In this document: positions 1,307-17,226 of the stretch, piece after piece | Layout: each line of letters starts with the position of its first letter | Numbering within the stretch: the stretch's first letter is position 1 | Virus record (IMG/VR): IMGVR_UViG_2609459857_000004 | Span: 1 to 31,179 of that record | Direction: 5' to 3' (one strand) | Origin: a virus | Taxonomy: Duplodnaviria > Heunggongvirae > Uroviricota > Caudoviricetes | Length of the DNA stretch: 31,179 nt | Notes under the pieces: model-generated | Database searches by the model: none | The model's input: the letters and a program-made list of their open reading frames with translations, nothing else | Told to the model about the DNA's origin: nothing | Made by a program: the position numbers and the translations under genes

Positions 1307-3763
1307 TTAAAAATCAACCGGATTCGGGATCAATTTTTGCCAGATTGCTGAAACGTATTTTGCCTGGTGATTGGCGTCATCCAGTGCATTGTGGGGTACA
1401 CCTTCGAACGGGATAGCTGTTCTGGCATCAAAACCGATGGTTTTTCCCAGTTCAACAATTGTGCGCACGTCGCGATCGTTGCAGTAACGCCACGGGCAGG
1501 GGATCCCCTGCCGTTCATATGAACGGCGTAAAATTGCGTTGTCGAAAGTTGCACCATTGCCCCATACCTGCACGAATTTTTCATCTGAATGCTCGCTGAT
1601 GAATTCCCTGAATTGCAGCAGCGCATCATCTAATGGGATTTGATTTACCAAAATTGCAGATCTGACCTCGCTGGACTGCACCAGCCACCATTCGATTGTG
1701 CTTATGTCGACAGTGCCGCCACCGGTTTTTGCATCAATCGTTTTGCTGAACTCCGGCCCCATCTCTCCGGTTTCGGGATCAAAAAATTTACCGCCAATAG
1801 AGTTGATTGGTGCATCAGGGTTTGTTCCCATCGTTTCAAGGTCGACCGAAAGATGATTCCATACTCTGCTGGTGGATGTGATAACGTGATGACTGTTCAC
1901 CGTAATTAAGGGATCCGCCGTCTCGCCAGTTTCACTATCGCTGGCGTTGTCCTGAGCGCTGCCAGCATTCTCCTTGTGTGGATGTTCAGCGCCTTCCATT
2001 TCCTCCGGATCATTTTCCTGAACTTCAACCTGATTCTCTTCATTGAATGTTTCCTGGTATGTTGCGTCGCCCATCACCGCGCCACAATCAGGGCAGTTGC
2101 CGCCACCGCTCTGACCGCAGGCGGTGCAGACTTTTTCCGGTTCCTGTTGCGCTACTGGTTCGGATTGTTTCGTTTCTGGCTCGTTTTGTAACGCATTTGA
2201 GCTGTTTTGTTCCTCTTTCTGGTCGTTCTGTTCCGTTTCTTGCTGGTTCTGGTTCACAGAATCGCGGGTTTCAATCCCCTTCACCCATTTCGGATCATTC
2301 GGGTCGCTAATCCCTGCAACAAATTCACCGCGAGAGGCCGCAAGCAACTTATCGGCGTCAGGCTGGCTGATATTGGCTGCCTGCATAATTTTGTTTACTT
2401 CGTCAGCGGTAACTTTTACCTGATTAACTGGATCTATCTGTGCCTGAGCATCCAGCGATTGCGTGTCCTGGCGATGTTCAGTTGTATCCGGTTCCATTGT
2501 TTCAGCCGTTGCCTGTTCATCTGCCATTGCGTCAGACGGTTGTGATTTTTCCTCATTATTTTTTTCTTCTTCTGTCTCGCGTTCAGCAGCCAGTTCGCGG
2601 TTAACTTCTTCCAGGATATCTTTTTCCGGTGTATGTCGTGCAGCAGCGAGAGTTTCCTCGGTAGGGTTCTCGTGATCAGTCTCCGTTAAATAGGCGTTGA
2701 TATACCCCTGAAGGCGTCCCGGGTAATGATAAAACTCAGGGTGTGCGCTCCGGATAAGTGCAAAAATAGCGGCGCGGGAATAATCCAGGATACCCGGGAT
2801 TGCGCGAAGTGCTGCGGACCATTCTTTGAACGGACTTTCTTTCTTCTGGACGACTTCTTTTGCGCGACGATAAACGCTGCCCGGAATTTCATAAATATTA
2901 AAATCCATCGGAAGTGTGGCCGCTGCAATCTCCACATCCAGCGTATCGAAGGTGTGTACTAAATTCGGATTGCGATCGGTTTTGTTCCCTCCACCGGCAT
3001 TAGCGCCGGAAGCCGTGCGGGTGATACGAGAAACACGATTTCCTTTCATCCACTCTTTTGTCAGCAGACCGCGATCGGTGTAGTCAGCGCCCAGGTATGC
3101 TTCGAAAAAAGCAGTCATTAGCCCCAGGCCTGAATTGCCAGGATTAGGGAAAACTTTGTCAGTATCACGCACCAGTTTGTGGAGATCGCGAATTTCCAGT
3201 GGATCGAGCAGACTGGTTTTATGCGAAATAGCGAGGGCAGTAACAGCTGGTAGTTCTTCAGCCCGTGCAATGTGTAATGCCTGGAGTTCGTCGCGTGAAA
3301 CGTGCGTTACCGGTTTTTCGCTGCCACGTTGAGCAAGCCAGCGAATGGGCAGTTCCTGACCGGAAACCGGCAGGAGCATGTTCTCCTCAATCTCAGCCAT
3401 GTCTTCGCCGTTGACGTTGGTATTGTCAGTGCTGGCTGGTTTATCCTGAACAGAGGGCGAGGGCGCGATAAGTACCATTGTGATACCATCTTCTCCGCCT
3501 TTTTCGTATCGGTTGCAGAATTCGGTATCAAACACGCCTTCCGGAGGAAGGTCATTCACAACGGGTAAATGGACGCGAACAGGTTTTTTAAAATCCTCTT
3601 CGTCAAATCCGGCATCGTCCATTGCGACAACACCGCGTGATATTGCAACCGATAATTTTTTTGCTGTGCGCCAGTAAAAACCGCCTTTAATCCCAAGACG
3701 TTTTCTGACTTTGTCATTTTTGGCTTCGTAATATAGTGCAATTTCTTCTTTATCAGCGCTCAT
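1307..3763 (-). CDS. RecE-like prophage exonuclease with C-terminal DEDDh (DnaQ-like) 3'-5' exonuclease domain
   Basis: 818-aa ORF with RBS GAGG upstream of ATG; C-terminal ~190 aa carry Exo I (VDLETMG), Exo II ([11 protein letters not shown]) and Exo III (HNALDDA) motifs; N-terminal region recalled as RecE-like, with an acidic low-complexity E/Q/N-rich linker. Confidence 0.65.
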
Positions 3764-12141: not shown

Positions 12142-13191
12142 GTGAGGGTATTAGTGACTCCTGAAATTGCTCACCGTCTGGGGATTGTACTTTTCAGGCC
12201 CGGTCCTGATGCGATGCCTTTGTTTATGCAGGGGCGTGTGCTGGTGGAGCCGGAACCAAAAAGCATGCGAGGTCTGCCATCCGGAGTCGTTCCTGCCGTT
12301 CGCCAGCCGCTGGCGGAAGACAAATCTCTGCTGCCATTTTTCAGCGATGAGCGGGTGATTCGCGCTGCTGGCGGTGCTGGTGCACTGTCTGACTGGCTAT
12401 TGCGCCACGTTAAATCCTGCCAGTGGCCTCATGGTGACTACCATCACAGCGAAACCGTCATACATCGTTATGGTGCTGGCGCGATGGTGTTGTGCTGGCA
12501 CTGCGACAACCAGCTGCGTGACCAGACATCCGAATCACTCGGGCAACTTGCTCATCAAAACCTGTCTGCATGGATGATTGACGTCATCCGTCACGCAATG
12601 AATGGCACACAGGAGCGGGAATTATCGCTGGCTGAATTGTACTGCTGGGCTGCTGTAAATGATGTAGTGGATGCCATGACCGAAAATATGGCGCGTCGAA
12701 TCCTGAAGCTTCCGGGGGAAAAAATCCACTCAGTATACCGCGAATGCGACATCATACCGGGAGAACAGACAGCCACCAGCATACTGAAGCAGCGCACAAA
12801 AAATATTGTGCTACCGCCTCACGCCCACCAGCAACAGAACCCACCACAGGAAAAGACGGTGGTCAGCATTGCCGTTGATCCGGAGTCTCCTGAATCTTTC
12901 ATGAAGCGACCTAAACGTCGCCGCTGGGTTAACGAAAAGTACACGCGCTGGGTTAAGACACAGCCGTGTGCATGTTGTGGTAAGCCAGCCGACGATCCCC
13001 ATCACCTGATTGGTCACGGTCAGGGAGGGATGGGGACAAAAGCCCACGATATTTTCACGCTACCGCTGTGCCGGGAGCATCACAATGAACTTCATGCTGA
13101 TCCGCTGGCATTTGAAGAAAAGCATGGTTCCCAGATTGATTTAATTTTTCGTTTTCTTGATCACGCCTTTGCAACCGGCGTGCTCGGGTAA
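12142..13191 (+). CDS. DUF968 (YdfU-like) protein with C-terminal HNH/zinc-finger-like motif
   Basis: 349-aa ORF, GTG start with GGAGG RBS; C-terminal CACCGK...HHLIGHG...CREHHNELH motif; NinG/YdfU-position gene upstream of rusA. Confidence 0.6.
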   Translation: MRVLVTPEIAHRLGIVLFRPGPDAMPLFMQGRVLVEPEPKSMRGLPSGVVPAVRQPLAEDKSLLPFFSDERVIRAAGGAGALSDWLLRHVKSCQWPHGDYHHSETVIHRYGAGAMVLCWHCDNQLRDQTSESLGQLAHQNLSAWMIDVIRHAMNGTQERELSLAELYCWAAVNDVVDAMTENMARRILKLPGEKIHSVYRECDIIPGEQTATSILKQRTKNIVLPPHAHQQQNPPQEKTVVSIAVDPESPESFMKRPKRRRWVNEKYTRWVKTQPCACCGKPADDPHHLIGHGQGGMGTKAHDIFTLPLCREHHNELHADPLAFEEKHGSQIDLIFRFLDHAFATGVLG

Positions 13192-13203: not shown

Positions 13204-13563
13204 ATGCGTATAGAGTTTGTTTTGCCTTACCCGCCGACGGTGAACACCTACTGGCGACGTCGTGGCAGTACATATTTTGTATCAAAAGCCGGTGAGCGTT
13301 ATCGCCGTGATGTGGCGCTCATTGTTCGCCAGCAGCGACTGAGATTAAACCTGTCCGGAAGGCTGGCAATAAAAATTACTGCAGAGCCACCGGATAAGCG
13401 CCGCCGTGACCTGGACAATATTCTGAAAGCACCACTGGATGCGTTGACGCATGCGGGGTTGCTTATCGACGACGAGCAGTTTGATGAAATCAATATTGTG
13501 CGCGGTCAGGTCGTTCCTGGTGGTCGGTTGGGCGTGAAGATTTACAAAATTGAAAGTGAGTGA
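13204..13563 (+). CDS. rusA: Holliday junction resolvase RusA
   Basis: 119 aa; matches recalled RusA features (LPYPPTVNTYW, DRRRRDLDN, GGRL...) and size. Confidence 0.85.
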   Translation: MRIEFVLPYPPTVNTYWRRRGSTYFVSKAGERYRRDVALIVRQQRLRLNLSGRLAIKITAEPPDKRRRDLDNILKAPLDALTHAGLLIDDEQFDEINIVRGQVVPGGRLGVKIYKIESE

Positions 13564-14126
13564 GCGTAAATATGATATACCCGGAAATTACAGGCAAAAG
13601 CGGTGAGCATTTACGCCTGAAAACGCTGGAAAGTGTCTGGCTCCAGGGGAAACTGCGTATGTGGGGGCGTTGGTCGTATATTGGCGGCGGTAAGACGGGA
13701 AATATGTTCAACCAATTACTGACCTCTAAAAAGCTGACAAAAACGGCAATTAACGAGGCGCTCCGGAGGATGAAAAAAGCGGGTCTGGACAAACCTGAAC
13801 TTGAGGCTTTTTTGCGGGATATGATCAACGGCAATCAAAAAAGCTGGCTGGCACATTGTACCGATTCAGAGGCGTTAATAATCGACAGGGTTATTGGTGA
13901 AGCCCTGGCCGGTTATCCCGGGCTGCTCAATGTCCTGAGTCAGCGTTATGTGGGGCGGGGGATGACTAAGCGCAAAATGGCTGAACTGCTGAATGATGCA
14001 CACCCGGAATGGAGTTTAAGAACCTGTGAAAGACGCATTGAGCATTGGCTAAAGGTGGCAGAATTTATTTTGTACAAACCAATGGTTATGGCTTTTGGTA
14101 TAGAGAAAAAAGTTATTGCTTTTTGA
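13560..14126 (+). CDS. putative late-gene antiterminator (Q-like by position)
   Basis: 188-aa ORF after rusA, followed by a promoter-like TTGACG and an intrinsic terminator; no lambda-Q zinc finger; start GTG 13560 or ATG 13572. Confidence 0.4.
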   Translation: MSVNMIYPEITGKSGEHLRLKTLESVWLQGKLRMWGRWSYIGGGKTGNMFNQLLTSKKLTKTAINEALRRMKKAGLDKPELEAFLRDMINGNQKSWLAHCTDSEALIIDRVIGEALAGYPGLLNVLSQRYVGRGMTKRKMAELLNDAHPEWSLRTCERRIEHWLKVAEFILYKPMVMAFGIEKKVIAF

Positions 14127-14203
14127 CGTAAAAACTGCTTCAATGCCGGTACGCTTCGCAAAGCTGTACCGCGAGGCGAATAGCAGACATGGACATTTGA
14201 AAG

Positions 14204-14229
14204 AGCCCGCTTTTTGCGGGTTTTTTTTA
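14204..14229 (+). terminator. rho-independent terminator (tR'-like, downstream of Q-like gene)
   Basis: Stem GCCCGC/GCGGGT with TTTTT loop followed by a 9-T run, about 80 bp past the Q-like stop. Confidence 0.7.
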
Positions 14230-14351: not shown

Positions 14352-14549
14352 ATGCTAAAACAGCAGGATATGACCGAAACTGCCAGAGTGGTGTTTAATG
14401 AATTAAGCGTCACCGAACCGGCGACCGTCGGGGAAATTGCGCAGAATACGTACCTTTCACGCGAACGCTGCCAGTTAATACTGACTCAGCTTGTTATGGC
14501 GGGTCTGGCAGATTATCAGTTCGGTTGTTACAGACGCCTTCCGCAGTGA
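14352..14549 (+). CDS. hypothetical small protein (possible winged-helix)
   Basis: 65 aa from ATG 14352 (MLKQQDMTETARVVF...); stop codon lies in the loop region of a second terminator. Confidence 0.35.
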   Translation: MLKQQDMTETARVVFNELSVTEPATVGEIAQNTYLSRERCQLILTQLVMAGLADYQFGCYRRLPQ

Positions 14550-14563
14550 AGGCTTTTTTATTT
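14536..14563 (+). terminator. rho-independent terminator
   Basis: Stem GCCTTC/GAAGGC, loop CGCAGT (contains the upstream ORF stop codon), then TTTTTTATTT. Confidence 0.6.
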
Positions 14564-14699
14564 GTGGTAATGGGCGGCTGGTGGGTGTTAGCGGCACCTG
14601 CCAGCCATCTGCTCATGCGTTGGGGTCACAAGCAAACCTCAGGCCCATCTGCTTTGCGCAAAAGCGGTATGAGCCTATCAGAGAAGTGCTTATTGATCT

Positions 14700-15746
14700 A
14701 TGGCTAATACTGTAAAAATATCCAGTCGTGAGTTAATCAACGCTGATTGCCTGGAATTTATCCAGACCTTACCGGAAAACTCTGTCGATCTGATAGTCAC
14801 AGACCCGCCATACTTTAAAGTGAAGCCCGAGGGCTGGGATAATCAGTGGAAGGGTGACGATGATTACCTGAAATGGCTGGACCAGTGTCTGGCGCAATTC
14901 TGGCGGGTACTGAAGCCTGCCGGAAGTCTTTATCTGTTCTGTGGTCATCGCCTGGCATCTGATATCGAAATCATGATGCGTGAACGCTTTAATGTGCTGA
15001 ACCACATTATCTGGGCGAAGCCGTCCGGACGCTGGAACGGATGCAACAAGGAAAGCCTGCGGGCGTATTTCCCGGCAACAGAACGCATTCTGTTTGCAGA
15101 ACATTATCAGGGGCCATACCAGCCCAAAAATGACGGCTATGCGGCAAAGGGGCGCGAGCTAAAACAGCACGTCATGGCCCCGCTGATTTCTTACTTTCGT
15201 GATGCGCGTGAATCACTGGGAATAACGTCAAAACAGATAGCGGAAGCCACCGGAAAGAAAAACATGGCTTCGCACTGGTTTGGTACCAGTCAGTGGCAGT
15301 TGCCGAACGAAGGCGATTATCTGAAATTACAGGCGTTGTTTGCGCGTGTTGCAGCAGAAAAACATCAGCGCGGTGAACTGGAAAAGCCACACCACCAGCT
15401 GGTCAGCACATACAGTGAACTGAACCGGCAATATGCCAGCCTGCTGGATGAGTACAAATCTCTGCGGCGTTATTTTTCCGTATCGGCTGCCGTTCCGTAT
15501 ACGGATGTCTGGACGCACAAGCCTGTGCAGTATTACCCCGGCAAACATCCCTGTGAGAAACCGGCGGATATGTTGCGTCAGATAATTACCGCCAGCAGCC
15601 ATCCGGGAGATTTGGTTGCTGATTTTTTTATGGGGTCGGGATCAACAATAAAAGCAGCATTATCGCTGGGACGGCATGCAATAGGTGTGGAGCTGGAAGA
15701 AGAGAGATTTAACCAGACTGTAAGCGAAATAAAAGAAAATAGTTAA
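14700..15746 (+). CDS. orphan DNA methyltransferase (N6-adenine/N4-cytosine amino-MTase, beta-class order)
   Basis: 348 aa; DPPY catalytic motif near N-terminus and FxGxG (FFMGSGST) AdoMet motif near C-terminus; no adjacent restriction endonuclease gene. Confidence 0.8.
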   Translation: MANTVKISSRELINADCLEFIQTLPENSVDLIVTDPPYFKVKPEGWDNQWKGDDDYLKWLDQCLAQFWRVLKPAGSLYLFCGHRLASDIEIMMRERFNVLNHIIWAKPSGRWNGCNKESLRAYFPATERILFAEHYQGPYQPKNDGYAAKGRELKQHVMAPLISYFRDARESLGITSKQIAEATGKKNMASHWFGTSQWQLPNEGDYLKLQALFARVAAEKHQRGELEKPHHQLVSTYSELNRQYASLLDEYKSLRRYFSVSAAVPYTDVWTHKPVQYYPGKHPCEKPADMLRQIITASSHPGDLVADFFMGSGSTIKAALSLGRHAIGVELEEERFNQTVSEIKENS

Positions 15747-15825
15747 ATATGTGTGTGATTATTTGTAATTAATCACGAGTGATAGAAATTTATACATATG
15801 TTTACTAATATTGACACTATGTTTA

Positions 15826-15853
15826 TTGAAATAGTGTTTGCCCTCATTAATAT
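15826..15853 (+). promoter_or_regulatory. candidate promoter for the tRNA genes
   Basis: TTGAAA (15826-15831), 16-nt spacer, TAATAT (15848-15853), about 75 bp upstream of the first tRNA. Confidence 0.3.
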
Positions 15854-15927
15854 CGATAGTCGGTTCCGAGGAGATGACAGGGAAATAATGCATATATCGG
15901 TCGTTTTATTTTTTCCGAGGAACCGTT

Positions 15928-16000
15928 GCCGATTTAACTTAGCAGACAAAGCAACTGACTTGTAATCACCGGGTCGCCAGTTCGATTCCGGTAATCGGCA
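15928..16000 (+). tRNA. tRNA-like gene, anticodon UGU (Thr) with weak D and anticodon stems (possible pseudo-tRNA)
   Basis: 7-bp acceptor stem GCCGATT/AATCGGC, T-loop TTCGATT, anticodon loop CTTGTAA at canonical positions 32-38; anticodon stem only 3 of 5 pairs; followed by CTA not CCA. Confidence 0.4.
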
Positions 16001-16006
16001 CTATAT

Positions 16007-16081
<75 letters not shown>

Positions 16082-16442
16082 GCATTTGAAATAAGCCTTA
16101 TTGTATTGCAGCACTGGCGTATTTTTATTACGTGGGAGCAGGTTGTTTTGAAAAAGCATTCTGTTCTCTGGCTATGATTTGAGGCCAGGTTAGCCTCAGT
16201 GCTGATTTTTTTACGGCAGCAGAATGGTGCATTGCTGGTTGGGATTTTGTATTTCCTGGCAGGGTCGGTGATGCATCATTCTGGTGTTGTAAATAACACC
16301 ATCGGGGCGCTCCTCAGGGCGAGGGTGGTTAAAAGAGTCGGTTTAGCGGGAAACCACAGTATTCATACAGGACGGAATACTTCGGGAGGCACCCGACGCC
16401 TCGATTTTATTACAATTAAAAAATTCATTCCTTGCATTGACC

Positions 16443-16469
16443 AACCGCCGTATCTGGCGGTTTTTTTTA
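16443..16469 (+). terminator. rho-independent terminator
   Basis: 7-bp stem AACCGCC/GGCGGTT, 6-nt loop, 8-T run. Confidence 0.65.
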
Positions 16470-16480
16470 TTCTTAATTCG

Positions 16481-16515
16481 AAAAAAGAAAACACGGACAC
16501 TGATAATGTCCGTGT
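16481..16515 (-). terminator. rho-independent terminator (minus-strand orientation)
   Basis: Perfect 9-bp stem ACACGGACA/TGTCCGTGT with 7-nt loop; A-run on plus strand gives a U-tract on the minus strand. Confidence 0.5.
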
Positions 16516-16790
16516 GGCAATGCCATGTAAGTCAGCGATGAATATGGCGCAAAAAAAGCGCGGCTGTCGGATTAACGCCGCGGGACAAAGTCCATGAAGA
16601 ATAATAAGTATTGGCCCCCTTCCGGGGACATGTTCATACTACCAAGATTCAGAAGTGGTTTAAATCCTCAAATTAACTTTAATTTCCGATAAGTCTTATT
16701 TCATTTCTTTGCGCCACATCTGGAGCTCATCAAATAACGCCACGCAAAGGGCGTCTGCGGATGCCGGTGCTTTTGACGGGGTGTTTTTTA

Positions 16791-16816
16791 CGGGCCGCTG
16801 GTGGCCCTTTTTTTAT
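16791..16816 (+). terminator. rho-independent terminator immediately upstream of the holin gene
   Basis: Stem GGGCC/GGCCC with 6-nt loop and 7-T run, ending 14 nt before the holin RBS. Confidence 0.6.
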
Positions 16817-16833
16817 TTACAGGAGAAAAAAGT

Positions 16834-17226
16834 ATGTCTGAACCCTTATCCGGTTCCGGCACGGCTGCGGCGCTCGGCGGGGCGACGGTGTACGGGCTGT
16901 TTACCGGGACGGATTTCGGGATTGTGTTTGGTGCGTTCGCCGGGGCGTTATTTGTGGCAACGATGCCGCAGGCGCTTTCAGCCTGGCGTGTGGCGGCGCA
17001 TTTTCTGGTGTCGTTCATTATCGGCGTGCTGGGGGCAGAGGTTCTGGCGTCATGGCTGGTAAAGCATACAGGGTTTGACGGTGCACCTGTCGACGCACTG
17101 TGTGCAGTGCTGGTGTCAGTGGTGTCGGTGAAGATTCTGTCGTTCATCCACCAGCAGGATATTGCATCACTGGTGTCCGGTGTGTTCTCCCGCCTGCGGG
17201 GCGGAGGAGGCGGCAATGTTAAGTAA
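16834..17226 (+). CDS. putative holin (multi-pass membrane protein)
   Basis: 130 aa from ATG 16834 with AGGAG RBS; Gly/Ala-rich hydrophobic segments; first gene of the lysis cassette. Confidence 0.55.
   Translation: MSEPLSGSGTAAALGGATVYGLFTGTDFGIVFGAFAGALFVATMPQALSAWRVAAHFLVSFIIGVLGAEVLASWLVKHTGFDGAPVDALCAVLVSVVSVKILSFIHQQDIASLVSGVFSRLRGGGGGNVK

What the first reader, a model, noticed from the sequence alone, without database searches (positions are those of the whole stretch)
16082..16833. Gene-free, terminator-dense 750 bp at the cargo position between the tRNAs and the holin
In Stx-type lambdoid phages the toxin genes occupy this position. Here no ORF has a credible start/RBS, yet there are at least three plus-strand intrinsic terminators and one minus-strand terminator. 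The only long ORF (16199-16597) reads through two terminators. Could be a cargo-loss scar, a Q-antitermination read-through region, or a small RNA locus.
Basis: partly seen in the sequence, partly recalled or inferred. Interest (0 to 1): 0.5.

Follow-up and report, generated by a model that had tools for sequence, protein, structure and literature searches.

The report
Conserved non-coding RNA and terminator spacer
The 750 bases between the phage's tRNA genes and its lysis genes hold no gene for a protein and are not a deletion scar: they are a conserved block of folded RNAs and transcription stop signals, found in about 7% of complete E. coli genomes, in a slot where other prophages carry known small regulatory RNAs.

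Summary
Window 16082-16833 has no conserved protein gene. It carries ten terminator-like sites in the 15700-17000 scan, where shuffles give 1.6. The "cargo-loss scar" reading does not hold. The stretch recurs at 80-95% identity in 385 of 5426 complete E. coli genomes, after a phage tRNA-Gly and before a holin, and is mostly unannotated.

It is built from modules:
- **A-B-C (16082-16475)** is the trailer of a tRNA operon that has its own promoter. It folds into plus-strand structures supported by covariation and ends in a strong terminator.
- **D-E (16476-16720)** is an optional cassette. It has a conserved minus-strand promoter and two minus-strand terminators, and I predict a 79-nt antisense small RNA.
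- **F (16721-16833)** puts two tandem terminators just before the holin ribosome-binding site.

The Q-dependent late promoter and its own terminator lie 2 kb upstream, directly after Q.

Best reading: serial terminators shield the lysis genes from constitutive transcription in the lysogen, and Q-modified polymerase reads through them. The module probably also yields stable small RNAs.

This is the slot of the known PasA/PasC/PasD/STnc100 sRNAs, but membership in those families was tested and not met. I rate it a new member of a known kind, of moderate interest. Transcription was not tested.

The parts
14124..14229 (+). Context: the late promoter region and its terminator (tR'-like; GCCCGC-TTTTT-GCGGGT followed by T8, about 14205-14229), directly after the Q-like gene (13560-14126).
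   Evidence: Read directly from the sequence. The same block lies directly after Q in loci L005, L006 and L002. Q is identified as DUF1133/PF06530. Promoter function is inferred.
15826..15853 (+). Context: a sigma-70-like promoter for the tRNA operon (TTGAAA, 16-nt spacer, TAATAT). A leader hairpin CGGTTCC...GGAACCG follows it.
   Evidence: Found by the promoter scan. Both hexamer positions are conserved in 7 of 8 aligned relatives, whether Q or the methylase gene lies upstream. Activity was not tested.
15928..16000 (+). Context: a degenerate tRNA-Thr(UGU)-like gene.
   Evidence: Rfam tRNA match at 45.9 bits with mismatched pairs. ARAGORN does not call it. Relatives carry an intact tRNA-Thr at 73.8 bits.
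16007..16081 (+). Context: tRNA-Gly(UCC) with an encoded CCA end. The spacer begins immediately after it.
   Evidence: A tRNA-Gly lies directly upstream of the module in 85 of 90 IMG/VR loci.
16082..16212 (+). Module A: the 3' trailer of the tRNA operon. Helix 16109-16116 with 16197-16204 closes a three-way junction and is followed by A and then U7 (16206-16212). I predict it is the first terminator, which would release a trailer RNA of about 130 nt.
   Evidence: Fold energy -41 kcal/mol, z = -2.7 on the plus strand against z = -0.8 on the minus strand. Helices 1-4 are 98.5-100% paired in 43 distinct sequences.
16148..16178 (+). Weak internal promoter candidate: TTGAAA, 19-nt spacer, TATGAT.
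   Evidence: Present in 40 of 43 variants. The 19-nt spacer is poor, and the -10 hexamer degrades to TGTGAT in divergent variants. Low confidence.
16210..16293 (+). Module B: a very stable 84-nt hairpin with a stem of about 38 bp and many G-U pairs. It is a candidate double-strand RNase (RNase III-type) processing site or a stabilising element.
   Evidence: Fold energy -44.1 kcal/mol, z = -7.9 on the plus strand, against -18.6 kcal/mol on the minus strand. Compensatory AU-to-GC changes occur at two of its pairs. Its weak matches to microRNA-precursor models only reflect its hairpin shape.
16301..16475 (+). Module C: a closed, structured domain of about 100 nt (outer helix roughly 16304-16309 with 16397-16402), then an A/U-rich single strand, then a strong intrinsic terminator (16443-16462 followed by U8). 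This 3' end has the architecture typical of Hfq-binding sRNAs.
   Evidence: Covariation at alignment pair 233:325 (CG in 22 sequences, UA in 20), at 284:306 (GC 27, AU 16) and at 289:301. Terminator. Weak full-length STnc100 match of 22.1 bits.
16476..16720 (-). Modules D-E: an optional cassette that is transcribed, by prediction, on the minus strand.
   Evidence: Among 66 relatives with enough downstream sequence, D-E is contiguous with C and F in 35, replaced by other sequence in 17, and absent in 6. D-E also occurs on its own in some genomes (hit H49).
16636..16664 (-). Minus-strand promoter candidate: -35 TTTAAA (16664-16659), 17-nt spacer, -10 TAGTAT (16641-16636). The predicted start is near 16629.
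   Evidence: Present in 34 of 37 variants. Divergent variants keep it with the -10 changed to TAATAT.
16551..16629 (-). Predicted 79-nt antisense small RNA. It has a 5' hairpin with a GGAA loop (16629-16614), an A/U-rich single strand, a small hairpin (16593-16583), and a terminator (16582-16559) followed by C and U7 (16557-16551).
   Evidence: Fold. The 5' stem shows CG-to-UA covariation, and U-G pairs favour the minus strand. Not shown to be transcribed.
16481..16515 (-). Second minus-strand terminator (stem 16515-16491, then a U-run to 16481). It would end a longer form of about 150 nt.
   Evidence: The stem sequence differs completely in the M19-type variant, yet the hairpin and U-run are kept. 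The 150-nt fold has z = -4.3.
16594..16692 (+). A 32-codon ORF antisense to the predicted small RNA. Probably not a gene.
   Evidence: Open in 17 of 21 variants, with a frameshift in 3 variants. No Shine-Dalgarno sequence. Variable sites fall 16/13/16 across codon positions.
16736..16814 (+). Module F: two tandem plus-strand terminators just upstream of the holin. They are a compound hairpin 16736-16783 followed by U6 (16784-16789), and hairpin 16792-16807 followed by U7 (16808-16814).
   Evidence: F is present in 65 of 66 relatives with enough downstream sequence. It lies in front of the PF16931-type holin in 51 of these and in front of another gene in 14, which is the S/EssD-type holin in the annotated examples.
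16822..17226 (+). Context: the holin ribosome-binding site (GGAG, 16822-16825) and the holin gene (ATG at 16834).
   Evidence: PF16931, E = 7.7e-22.

Best explanation
The spacer is a conserved, modular, non-coding part of the phage late region. It has two roles.

First, it acts in cis as a serial terminator barrier. The two tRNA genes just upstream have their own sigma-70-type promoter, separate from the Q-dependent late promoter. That late promoter lies 2 kb upstream and is stopped by its own terminator right after Q. In a lysogen, ordinary RNA polymerase that starts at the tRNA promoter, or at any promoter inside the spacer, meets four to five plus-strand terminators. These are the end of A, the end of the closed C domain (weak), the strong terminator at the end of C, and two in F. 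Little or no transcription should therefore reach the holin and endolysin genes. After induction, polymerase modified by Q at the late promoter ignores all of them and transcribes the lysis and morphogenesis genes.

Second, the transcripts that stop here are probably stable, folded RNAs. On the plus strand these are a tRNA-trailer RNA (A), a long hairpin (B) and a structured RNA with a terminator like those of Hfq-binding sRNAs (C). On the minus strand, an independent cassette (D-E) has its own promoter and two terminators and would give a small RNA of about 79 or about 150 nt, antisense to the late-mRNA leader. These are candidates for regulatory small RNAs of the kind already known from this slot.

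What is shown: conservation, modularity, absence of a conserved ORF, strand-specific structural constraint, and hairpin-plus-U-tract anatomy.

What is inferred: promoter activity, termination efficiency, Q read-through (from established knowledge of lambdoid Q proteins), RNA stability, and any function in trans.
For: - Terminator excess: 10 sites against 1.6 +/- 1.4 expected. Further terminators come from folding.
- Conservation: the stretch occurs in 385 of 5426 complete E. coli genomes at 80-95% identity, on chromosomes only, and is mostly unannotated. It also occurs in phages SerU-LTIIb and vB_EcoS-683R6 and in Escherichia ruysiae.
- It appears with different Q genes, with or without the methylase gene, and with two unrelated holin types.
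- The late promoter and its terminator sit directly after Q, and a separate conserved promoter precedes the tRNAs.
- Consensus fold of A-B-C in 43 distinct sequences: -95.9 kcal/mol, 90 pairs, 9 of them with compensatory changes.
- 99.0% of pair cells are paired, against 40-52% when the partners are slid. 65 cells carry a change on both sides, against 21.9 +/- 5.1 in shuffles (0 of 500 shuffles reach the observed value).
- The same pairs read on the minus strand are only 80.7% paired.
- Paired columns show transitions:transversions of 64:16, against 79:88 in unpaired columns. 87.8% of variant cells stay paired.
- Hairpin B has z = -7.9 on the plus strand only.
- The minus-strand promoter is conserved in 34 of 37 variants. 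The minus-strand terminator hairpin is kept despite complete turnover of its stem sequence.
- Modular behaviour: tRNA-Gly is adjacent in 85 of 90 loci, D-E is optional, and F is present in 65 of 66.
- Literature: PasA, PasC, PasD, STnc100 and StxS are Hfq-binding sRNAs encoded between Q and the lysis genes of lambdoid prophages. Sources are bioRxiv 10.64898/2026.05.13.724894, PMC8550237 and PMC7547250.
Against: - There are no expression data of any kind. Every promoter and terminator is a prediction.
- Prophage modules spread by recombination, so 80-95% identity alone does not prove selection. The shuffle control does not correct for relatedness among sequences.
- No convincing promoter was found for B-C. 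The only candidate has a 19-nt spacer, so B-C may exist only as read-through or processing products.
- Module C alone folds only modestly better than shuffles (z = -1.6).
- Strand discrimination for D-E is weak: 99% paired on the minus strand against 94% on the plus strand.
- No Rfam family reaches its gathering score apart from tRNA.
- The first "terminator" in A is atypical, because its stem closes a three-way junction.
Confidence: 0.6

Rival explanations
1. The spacer is a purely cis-acting element. The hairpins serve only as terminators, insulators and RNA-processing or stability elements for the tRNA operon and the late mRNA. None of the RNAs has a function in trans.
For: The terminator anatomy and its position before the holin explain much of the conservation. 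No seed-like match to the known Pas sRNAs was found. No independent promoter for B-C was found.
Against: Terminators alone do not need a 100-nt closed domain with covariation, or an 84-nt hairpin. D-E has its own conserved minus-strand promoter and points away from the lysis genes, so it cannot be an insulator for them. All characterised RNAs from this slot bind Hfq and act in trans (PMC8550237, PMC7547250).
Confidence: 0.25
2. Module C (about 16276-16472) is a divergent member of the PasD/STnc100 sRNA family (Rfam RF02076).
For: It gives a full-length match to STnc100 (model positions 1-206) ending exactly at the strong terminator, E = 0.006-0.026 in the local searches. It has the same strand and the same region (Q to holin) as PasD1 and PasD2. 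My own model of module C places its best plus-strand hits in the PasD loci over the PasD genes.
Against: The score is 22.1 bits against a gathering score of 47, while PasD1 and PasD2 themselves score 38-41 bits. The reciprocal hits are not significant (9.4 bits, E = 1.7; 6.0 bits, E = 9.4). MAFFT finds no sequence similarity. The PasD seed UGUGAG is absent. The position relative to the cargo genes differs: C lies upstream of TerB/DUF3927, and PasD lies downstream of DUF3927.
Confidence: 0.15
3. The spacer encodes one or more small proteins. Candidates are the 32-codon ORF 16594-16692, perhaps paired with the antisense RNA as a toxin-antitoxin-like pair, and the 132-codon ORF 16199-16597 that PGAP annotates as hypothetical in a few genomes.
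For: The 32-codon ORF is open, with a conserved stop, in 17 of 21 variants. The predicted antisense RNA covers its start codon. PGAP calls the 132-codon ORF in ETEC1732.
Against: The 132-codon ORF is disrupted in 37 of 42 relatives and runs through terminators. It has no Pfam match. The 32-codon ORF has no Shine-Dalgarno sequence and no third-position bias (16/13/16). Three variants are frameshifted. Its peptide is not hydrophobic, unlike typical type I toxins.
Confidence: 0.07
4. The spacer is a cargo-loss scar or decaying pseudogene remnant with no function, kept similar across genomes only by recent shared ancestry and recombination.
For: It lies in a known cargo slot, and relatives carry TerB/DUF3927 or other inserts here. 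The modules are mosaic.
Against: Base pairs are maintained in a strand-specific way. Paired columns are half as variable as unpaired ones and change almost only by transitions. Compensatory changes occur. Terminator hairpins are kept despite sequence turnover. No relative shows a longer intact ORF of which this could be a remnant.
Confidence: 0.04

Closest known systems
PasD1/PasD2 and STnc100 (Rfam RF02076): Hfq-binding sRNAs of lambdoid prophages (EPEC E2348/69; Salmonella Fels-1)
   Same: They are plus-strand RNAs of about 200 nt, encoded between the Q antiterminator and the holin. They end in an intrinsic terminator with a U-tract. Module C gives a weak full-length match to the STnc100 model.
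   Different: Module C scores far below the family threshold, and the reciprocal model search is not significant. It shares no sequence similarity or seed with PasD. It lies on the other side of the TerB/DUF3927 cargo genes. It is linked to a tRNA-Gly, which PasD is not.
PasA/PasC: sRNAs of EPEC prophages encoded just upstream of the holin on the strand opposite to the late operon
   Same: The predicted D-E RNA has the same orientation (antisense to the late transcript), the same place (between the cargo and the holin), a similar size (about 80 nt) and its own terminator.
   Different: There is no sequence similarity and no PasA seed. The expression of D-E is only predicted.
Lambda 6S RNA and StxS: the short transcript from the late promoter PR' that stops at tR' and is read through by Q
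   Same: The logic is the same. A constitutive promoter is followed by an intrinsic terminator in the late region. The terminated RNA can become a regulatory sRNA, and Q-modified polymerase reads through.
   Different: Here the real PR'/tR' pair lies 2 kb upstream, directly after Q. The spacer's terminators instead stop transcription from a separate tRNA promoter. They come in series and are independent of the Q type.
3' external transcribed spacer RNAs of tRNA operons (3'ETS-leuZ in E. coli) and the small stable RNAs C and D of the phage T4 tRNA cluster (both from my own knowledge)
   Same: Modules A-C are a structured RNA encoded directly downstream of the last tRNA of an operon. They are presumably co-transcribed with it and released by tRNA 3' processing.
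   Different: No processing or sponge activity was tested. There is no sequence relationship to these RNAs.
Morons of lambdoid phages: cargo genes with their own promoter and terminator, inserted between late genes
   Same: D-E behaves as a self-contained, optional insert with its own promoter and terminators. It alternates with TerB-type cargo in the same slot.
   Different: Its product appears to be RNA, not protein.

Membership tests
PasD/STnc100 sRNA family (Rfam RF02076) | Match to the Rfam covariance model at or above the gathering score of 47 bits. | tested here: not met
   Window 16276-16472 scores 22.1 bits. PasD2 and PasD1 score 41.4 and 37.7 bits.
PasD/STnc100 sRNA family (Rfam RF02076) | Reciprocal detection: a structure model of the window's element finds bona fide PasD genes significantly. 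| tested here: not met
   Model R1 hits L009:3153-3339 at 9.4 bits (E = 1.7) and L010:2756-2943 at 6.0 bits (E = 9.4). The hits fall over the PasD genes but are not significant.
PasD/STnc100 sRNA family (Rfam RF02076) | Conserved PasD seed UGUGAG, complementary to the CUCACA motif in its targets (PMC8550237 supplement). | tested here: not met
   UGUGAG does not occur on either strand of 16082-16833.
PasD/STnc100 sRNA family (Rfam RF02076) | Located between Q and the holin of a lambdoid prophage, on the late-operon strand, with a 3' intrinsic terminator. | tested here: met
PasA/PasC sRNA family | Sequence similarity to PasA/PasC, including the terminator-overlapping seed GCCAGCACCU. | tested here: not met
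   The alignment with the E2348/69 PasA region shows no similarity. The seed is absent.
PasA/PasC sRNA family | A minus-strand RNA gene immediately upstream of the holin, with its own intrinsic terminator. | tested here: met
   Minus-strand promoter and terminators at 16664-16481. This is anatomy only; transcription was not tested.
Hfq-dependent trans-acting sRNA (general class) | The RNA is expressed, binds Hfq and base-pairs with target mRNAs. | not testable with these tools
   Only the 3' architecture (a stem-loop followed by U7-U8, preceded by an A/U-rich single strand) can be seen.
Intrinsic (Rho-independent) terminators | A G+C-rich hairpin immediately followed by a U-tract, conserved in relatives. 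| tested here: met
   16443-16462 with U8, 16792-16807 with U7, and on the minus strand 16515-16491 and 16582-16559 with U7. They are conserved, with compensatory changes. Termination efficiency was not tested.
Q-utilisation (qut) site / PR'-tR' unit of the late operon | Lies immediately downstream of Q, contains the late promoter, and is specific to the Q type. | tested here: not met
   That unit lies at about 14124-14229. The spacer is found with DUF1133-type Q, with a different "antitermination protein Q", and with no adjacent Q at all.
Protein-coding gene | An ORF conserved in relatives, with a start signal and a codon-position substitution bias. | tested here: not met
   ORF 16199-16597 stays open in 5 of 42 relatives. 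ORF 16594-16692 is open in 17 of 21 variants, but without a Shine-Dalgarno sequence or third-position bias. There is no Pfam match.
tRNA-operon 3' external transcribed spacer RNA | Directly follows the last tRNA of an operon, on the same strand, upstream of the operon's terminator. | tested here: met
   Module A starts at the base after the CCA end of tRNA-Gly and ends at a helix followed by U7. The link to tRNA-Gly holds in 85 of 90 loci. Co-transcription and processing were not tested.

The most novel reading that the evidence does not exclude
The tRNA-linked A-B-C unit and the antisense D-E cassette are previously unnamed families of prophage regulatory RNAs carried by roughly 5-7% of E. 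coli genomes. On this reading, a trailer RNA processed from the tRNA operon and a structured RNA of about 175-290 nt act on host or phage mRNAs in the lysogen. The antisense RNA pairs with the late-mRNA leader just upstream of the holin and tunes lysis timing or leakiness.
Probability: 0.3. Interest if true: 0.55.

Novelty: new member of a known kind. Interest (0 to 1): 0.35.

Why it matters
The interval between Q and the lysis genes in lambdoid prophages is where Shiga toxin and several characterised regulatory sRNAs reside (StxS, PasA, PasC, PasD, STnc100, AgvB/AsxR).

This module adds a widespread set of structured RNAs to that slot. It occurs in 385 of 5426 complete E. coli genomes and has no Rfam family or name that I could find.

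It also gives a concrete reason for the clustering of terminators. The tRNA genes have their own promoter, separate from the Q-dependent one, so the lysis genes must be shielded from it in the lysogen.

In practice, genome annotation pipelines leave the region blank or call a spurious ORF in it. The coordinates given here make the RNAs directly testable by Northern blot, Term-seq and Hfq/ProQ crosslinking.

It does not change the current understanding of how lambdoid late regulation works.

Tried and rejected
- **Rfam at gathering thresholds over the whole window.** Only the two tRNAs were found.
- **Permissive Rfam search.** It gave a weak STnc100 match, noise matches (isrK, STnc240, and microRNA-precursor models that only reflect hairpin B), and nothing for AgvB, AsxR or Esr41.
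- **Direct alignment with the PasD1, PasD2 and PasA regions of E2348/69.** No similarity.
- **My own covariance model of module C searched against the PasD loci.** Not significant.
- **Scan of one genome per species for an 18-base conserved core.** Only Escherichia ruysiae matched, plus seven chance hits in unrelated phyla. The element therefore looks restricted to Escherichia, but this scan is shallow.
- **The 132-codon ORF as a gene.** Rejected.
- **The 32-codon ORF as a gene or type I toxin.** Judged unlikely.
- **Repeat element (REP/ERIC-like) for hairpin B.** Rejected. Copies number 1-5 per genome, the median genome has one, and all 474 lie on chromosomes.
- **The hairpin 16386-16402 reported by the scan as a local terminator.** The covarying position supports the long-range helix instead. 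The local hairpin would be broken in about half of the sequences.
- **Looking for a well-studied strain with published RNA maps.** E. coli W carries the module, but I found no paper describing RNAs from it.
- **A first full MAFFT run.** It timed out and was repeated with faster settings.
Full report
**Setting**

The window is a lambdoid prophage. Pfam identifies these genes in order:
- a DUF968 protein (12142-13191);
- RusA (13204-13563);
- a Q-like antiterminator of the DUF1133/PF06530 type (13560-14126);
- a small ORF (listed from a TTG at 14214; the likely ATG start is 14353; ends 14549);
- an N6/N4 DNA methylase (14700-15746);
- after the finding, a PF16931 holin (ATG at 16834), a second holin and an M15 endolysin.

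tRNA-Gly(UCC) lies at 16007-16081. A second, degenerate tRNA lies at 15928-16000 and is seen by Rfam only (45.9 bits). In relatives it is an intact tRNA-Thr. The finding covers the 752 bases between tRNA-Gly and the holin.

**Check of the observation**

The terminator scan of 15700-17000 gives 10 sites against 1.6 +/- 1.4 in shuffles. Folding refines and extends this list.

Plus-strand terminators:
- Helix 16109-16116 with 16197-16204 closes a three-way junction and is followed by U7 (16206-16212).
- Hairpin 16443-16462 followed by U8 is strong.
- A compound hairpin 16736-16783 is followed by U6.
- Hairpin 16792-16807 is followed by U7, 20 bases before the holin start codon.

Minus-strand terminators:
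- Hairpin 16515-16491 with a U-run.
- Hairpin 16582-16559 with U7.

The long ORF 16199-16597 has no Pfam match. It is open in only 5 of 42 distinct relatives, and 33 of 42 have frame-shifting indels. A 32-codon ORF (16594-16692) is open in 17 of 21 variants. It lacks a ribosome-binding site, and its variable sites are spread evenly over codon positions (16/13/16).

**The spacer is not a scar**

The 752 bases recur in 385 of 5426 complete E. coli genomes at 80-95% identity. They occur only on chromosomes, with a median of one copy per genome, and are almost always unannotated. Modules B-C alone are found in 252 genomes, including E. coli W.

The stretch is also present in phages SerU-LTIIb and vB_EcoS-683R6 and in Escherichia ruysiae.

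It occurs with different Q genes, with or without the methylase, and in front of two unrelated holin types. It is therefore not a Q-specific or a holin-specific element.

**Modules**

I collected 100 IMG/VR loci with a conserved 18-base core. Segment-wise BLAST against them shows a mosaic:
- Modules A (16082-16210), B (16211-16300) and C (16301-16475) usually travel together, directly after tRNA-Gly. The tRNA is adjacent in 85 of 90 loci.
- Modules D-E (16476-16720) are optional. Of 66 loci, they are contiguous with C and F in 35, replaced by another 0.6-0.7 kb in 17, and absent in 6. Two loci carry an insert between E and F.
- Module F (16721-16833) is present in 65 of 66.

Some replacements and inserts encode a 141-residue TerB-like protein and a DUF3927 protein.

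**Transcription logic of the neighbourhood**

Directly after Q the window carries the same block that follows Q in relatives. It ends in a clear terminator, GCCCGC-TTTTT-GCGGGT followed by T8, at about 14205-14229. This is the expected place of the Q-dependent late promoter and its terminator.

A second promoter-like site lies upstream of the tRNAs: TTGAAA at 15826, a 16-nt spacer, and TAATAT at 15848-15853. Both hexamers are conserved whether Q or the methylase lies upstream.

The tRNA genes are therefore probably expressed on their own in the lysogen. Whatever polymerase starts there must be stopped before the holin. This gives the serial plus-strand terminators a clear role. Read-through by Q-modified polymerase after induction follows from established knowledge of lambdoid Q proteins and was not tested here.

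**RNA-level constraint on A-B-C**

I aligned 43 distinct sequences. The results are:
- The consensus fold has 90 pairs at -95.9 kcal/mol, and 9 pairs show compensatory changes.
- 99.0% of pair cells are paired, against 40-52% when the partners are slid.
- 65 cells carry a change on both sides, against 21.9 +/- 5.1 in shuffles (0 of 500 shuffles reach the observed value).
- The clearest covarying pairs lie in module C: CG in 22 sequences against UA in 20 at one pair, and GC in 27 against AU in 16 at another.
- Read on the minus strand, the same pairs are only 80.7% paired, because 18.6% of cells are G-U.
- Paired columns are half as variable as unpaired ones. They change almost only by transitions (64:16), against 79:88 in unpaired columns. 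87.8% of variant cells remain paired.
- Hairpin B (16210-16293) is exceptionally stable on the plus strand (-44.1 kcal/mol, z = -7.9) and far less so on the minus strand (-18.6 kcal/mol).

Together these results argue for functional plus-strand RNA. One caveat applies: the shuffle control does not account for relatedness among the sequences.

**The D-E cassette**

A promoter-like site on the minus strand is present in 34 of 37 variants. It has -35 TTTAAA at 16664-16659, a 17-nt spacer, and -10 TAGTAT at 16641-16636. Divergent variants keep it with the -10 changed to TAATAT.

A start near 16629 would give an RNA that begins with a GGAA-loop hairpin, continues with an A/U-rich single strand and a small hairpin, and ends at the terminator with U7 at 16551. 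That is 79 nt. It would be about 150 nt if it ended at the second terminator.

The 5' stem covaries (CG to UA), and its U-G pairs favour the minus strand. The second terminator keeps its hairpin and U-run even where its stem sequence is entirely different.

This RNA would be antisense to the late-mRNA leader. It is a prediction only.

**Comparison with what is known**

Pearl Mizrahi et al. (PMC8550237) and Zhu, Shabalina and Storz (bioRxiv 10.64898/2026.05.13.724894) describe PasA and PasC (minus strand, next to the holin) and PasD1 and PasD2 (plus strand, related to STnc100). These are Hfq-binding sRNAs in this same interval of EPEC prophages. Sy et al. (PMC7547250) describe StxS, which is made from the late promoter and its terminator.

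I located PasD2 and PasD1 in E2348/69. They score 41 and 38 bits on the STnc100 model. The tests of membership gave these results:
- Module C scores only 22 bits against a threshold of 47.
- A covariance model built from module C lands on the PasD genes, but without significance (E = 1.7 and 9.4).
- Alignments show no similarity to PasD or PasA.
- The Pas seeds are absent.
- Module C lies upstream of the TerB/DUF3927 cargo, and PasD lies downstream of DUF3927.

The module therefore works like these systems and occupies their slot, but it is not shown to belong to their families.

**Verdict**

The feature is real, conserved and non-coding. Its most likely role is two-fold. It is a serial terminator barrier that keeps the lysis genes silent in the lysogen and is overridden by Q. 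It is also a source of stable structured RNAs, including a tRNA-trailer RNA and an independently transcribed antisense RNA.

The general phenomenon is known. These particular RNAs are not in Rfam, and I found no name for them in the papers I read. I rate it a new member of a known kind, interest 0.35.

The main uncertainty is the complete lack of expression data. The experiments listed under next steps would settle it quickly.

Noticed in passing
window 15928-16000: The first of the two phage tRNAs is degenerate here. Rfam gives 45.9 bits with mismatches in the D and anticodon stems, and ARAGORN does not call it. Relatives have an intact tRNA-Thr(UGU) at 73.8 bits, or a tRNA-Arg or tRNA-Ile at this place. 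It is probably a decaying tRNA gene.
   Followed up: partly
window 14124-14229: The late promoter region with a strong terminator (GCCCGC-TTTTT-GCGGGT followed by T8) sits directly after the Q-like gene. This transcript is the true counterpart of lambda 6S RNA and StxS, and it could itself be a small RNA.
   Followed up: partly
window 14353-15746: A 65-residue ORF with a weak winged-helix (TrmB-like) match and an N6/N4 DNA methylase lie between the late terminator and the tRNA promoter. Relatives lack both genes and have the tRNAs about 350 bases after Q. This looks like a separate cargo insertion.
   Followed up: partly
L001 (KU052038.1, phage SerU-LTIIb) 1122-4127: The block of tRNA, tRNA-Gly, spacer and holin is tandemly duplicated in the LT-IIb toxin phage. 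The first holin copy is truncated ("holin1a"). The toxin genes sit after the endolysin, not in this spacer.
   Followed up: no
L008 (NZ_CP054662.1) 2277-2366, minus strand: The covariance model of module C gives a second, partial hit in inverted orientation (24.9 bits, E = 0.0007). It lies next to an IraM pseudogene and an IS21 element, just upstream of the truncated module. It may be a rearrangement remnant.
   Followed up: no
window 16495-16593 and the M19-type variant (L004, about 2900-3010): In the M19-type variant the motif "G+C-rich hairpin followed by GGGACAAAGTCC" occurs twice in tandem. This suggests that the two minus-strand terminator units arose by duplication.
   Followed up: no
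E. coli genomes record NZ_CM135829.1 (labelled strain DH5alpha), about 816567-816828: An assembly labelled DH5alpha (4.83 Mb) carries this prophage module. As far as I know, K-12 strains do not carry it, so the label or the assembly may be wrong.
   Followed up: no
L009 and L010 (E2348/69), and window 16792-16814: A hairpin of the form CTGGYGGC followed by a T-run lies just upstream of the holin in unrelated prophages too. A terminator immediately before the holin may be a general feature of lambdoid lysis cassettes.
   Followed up: no
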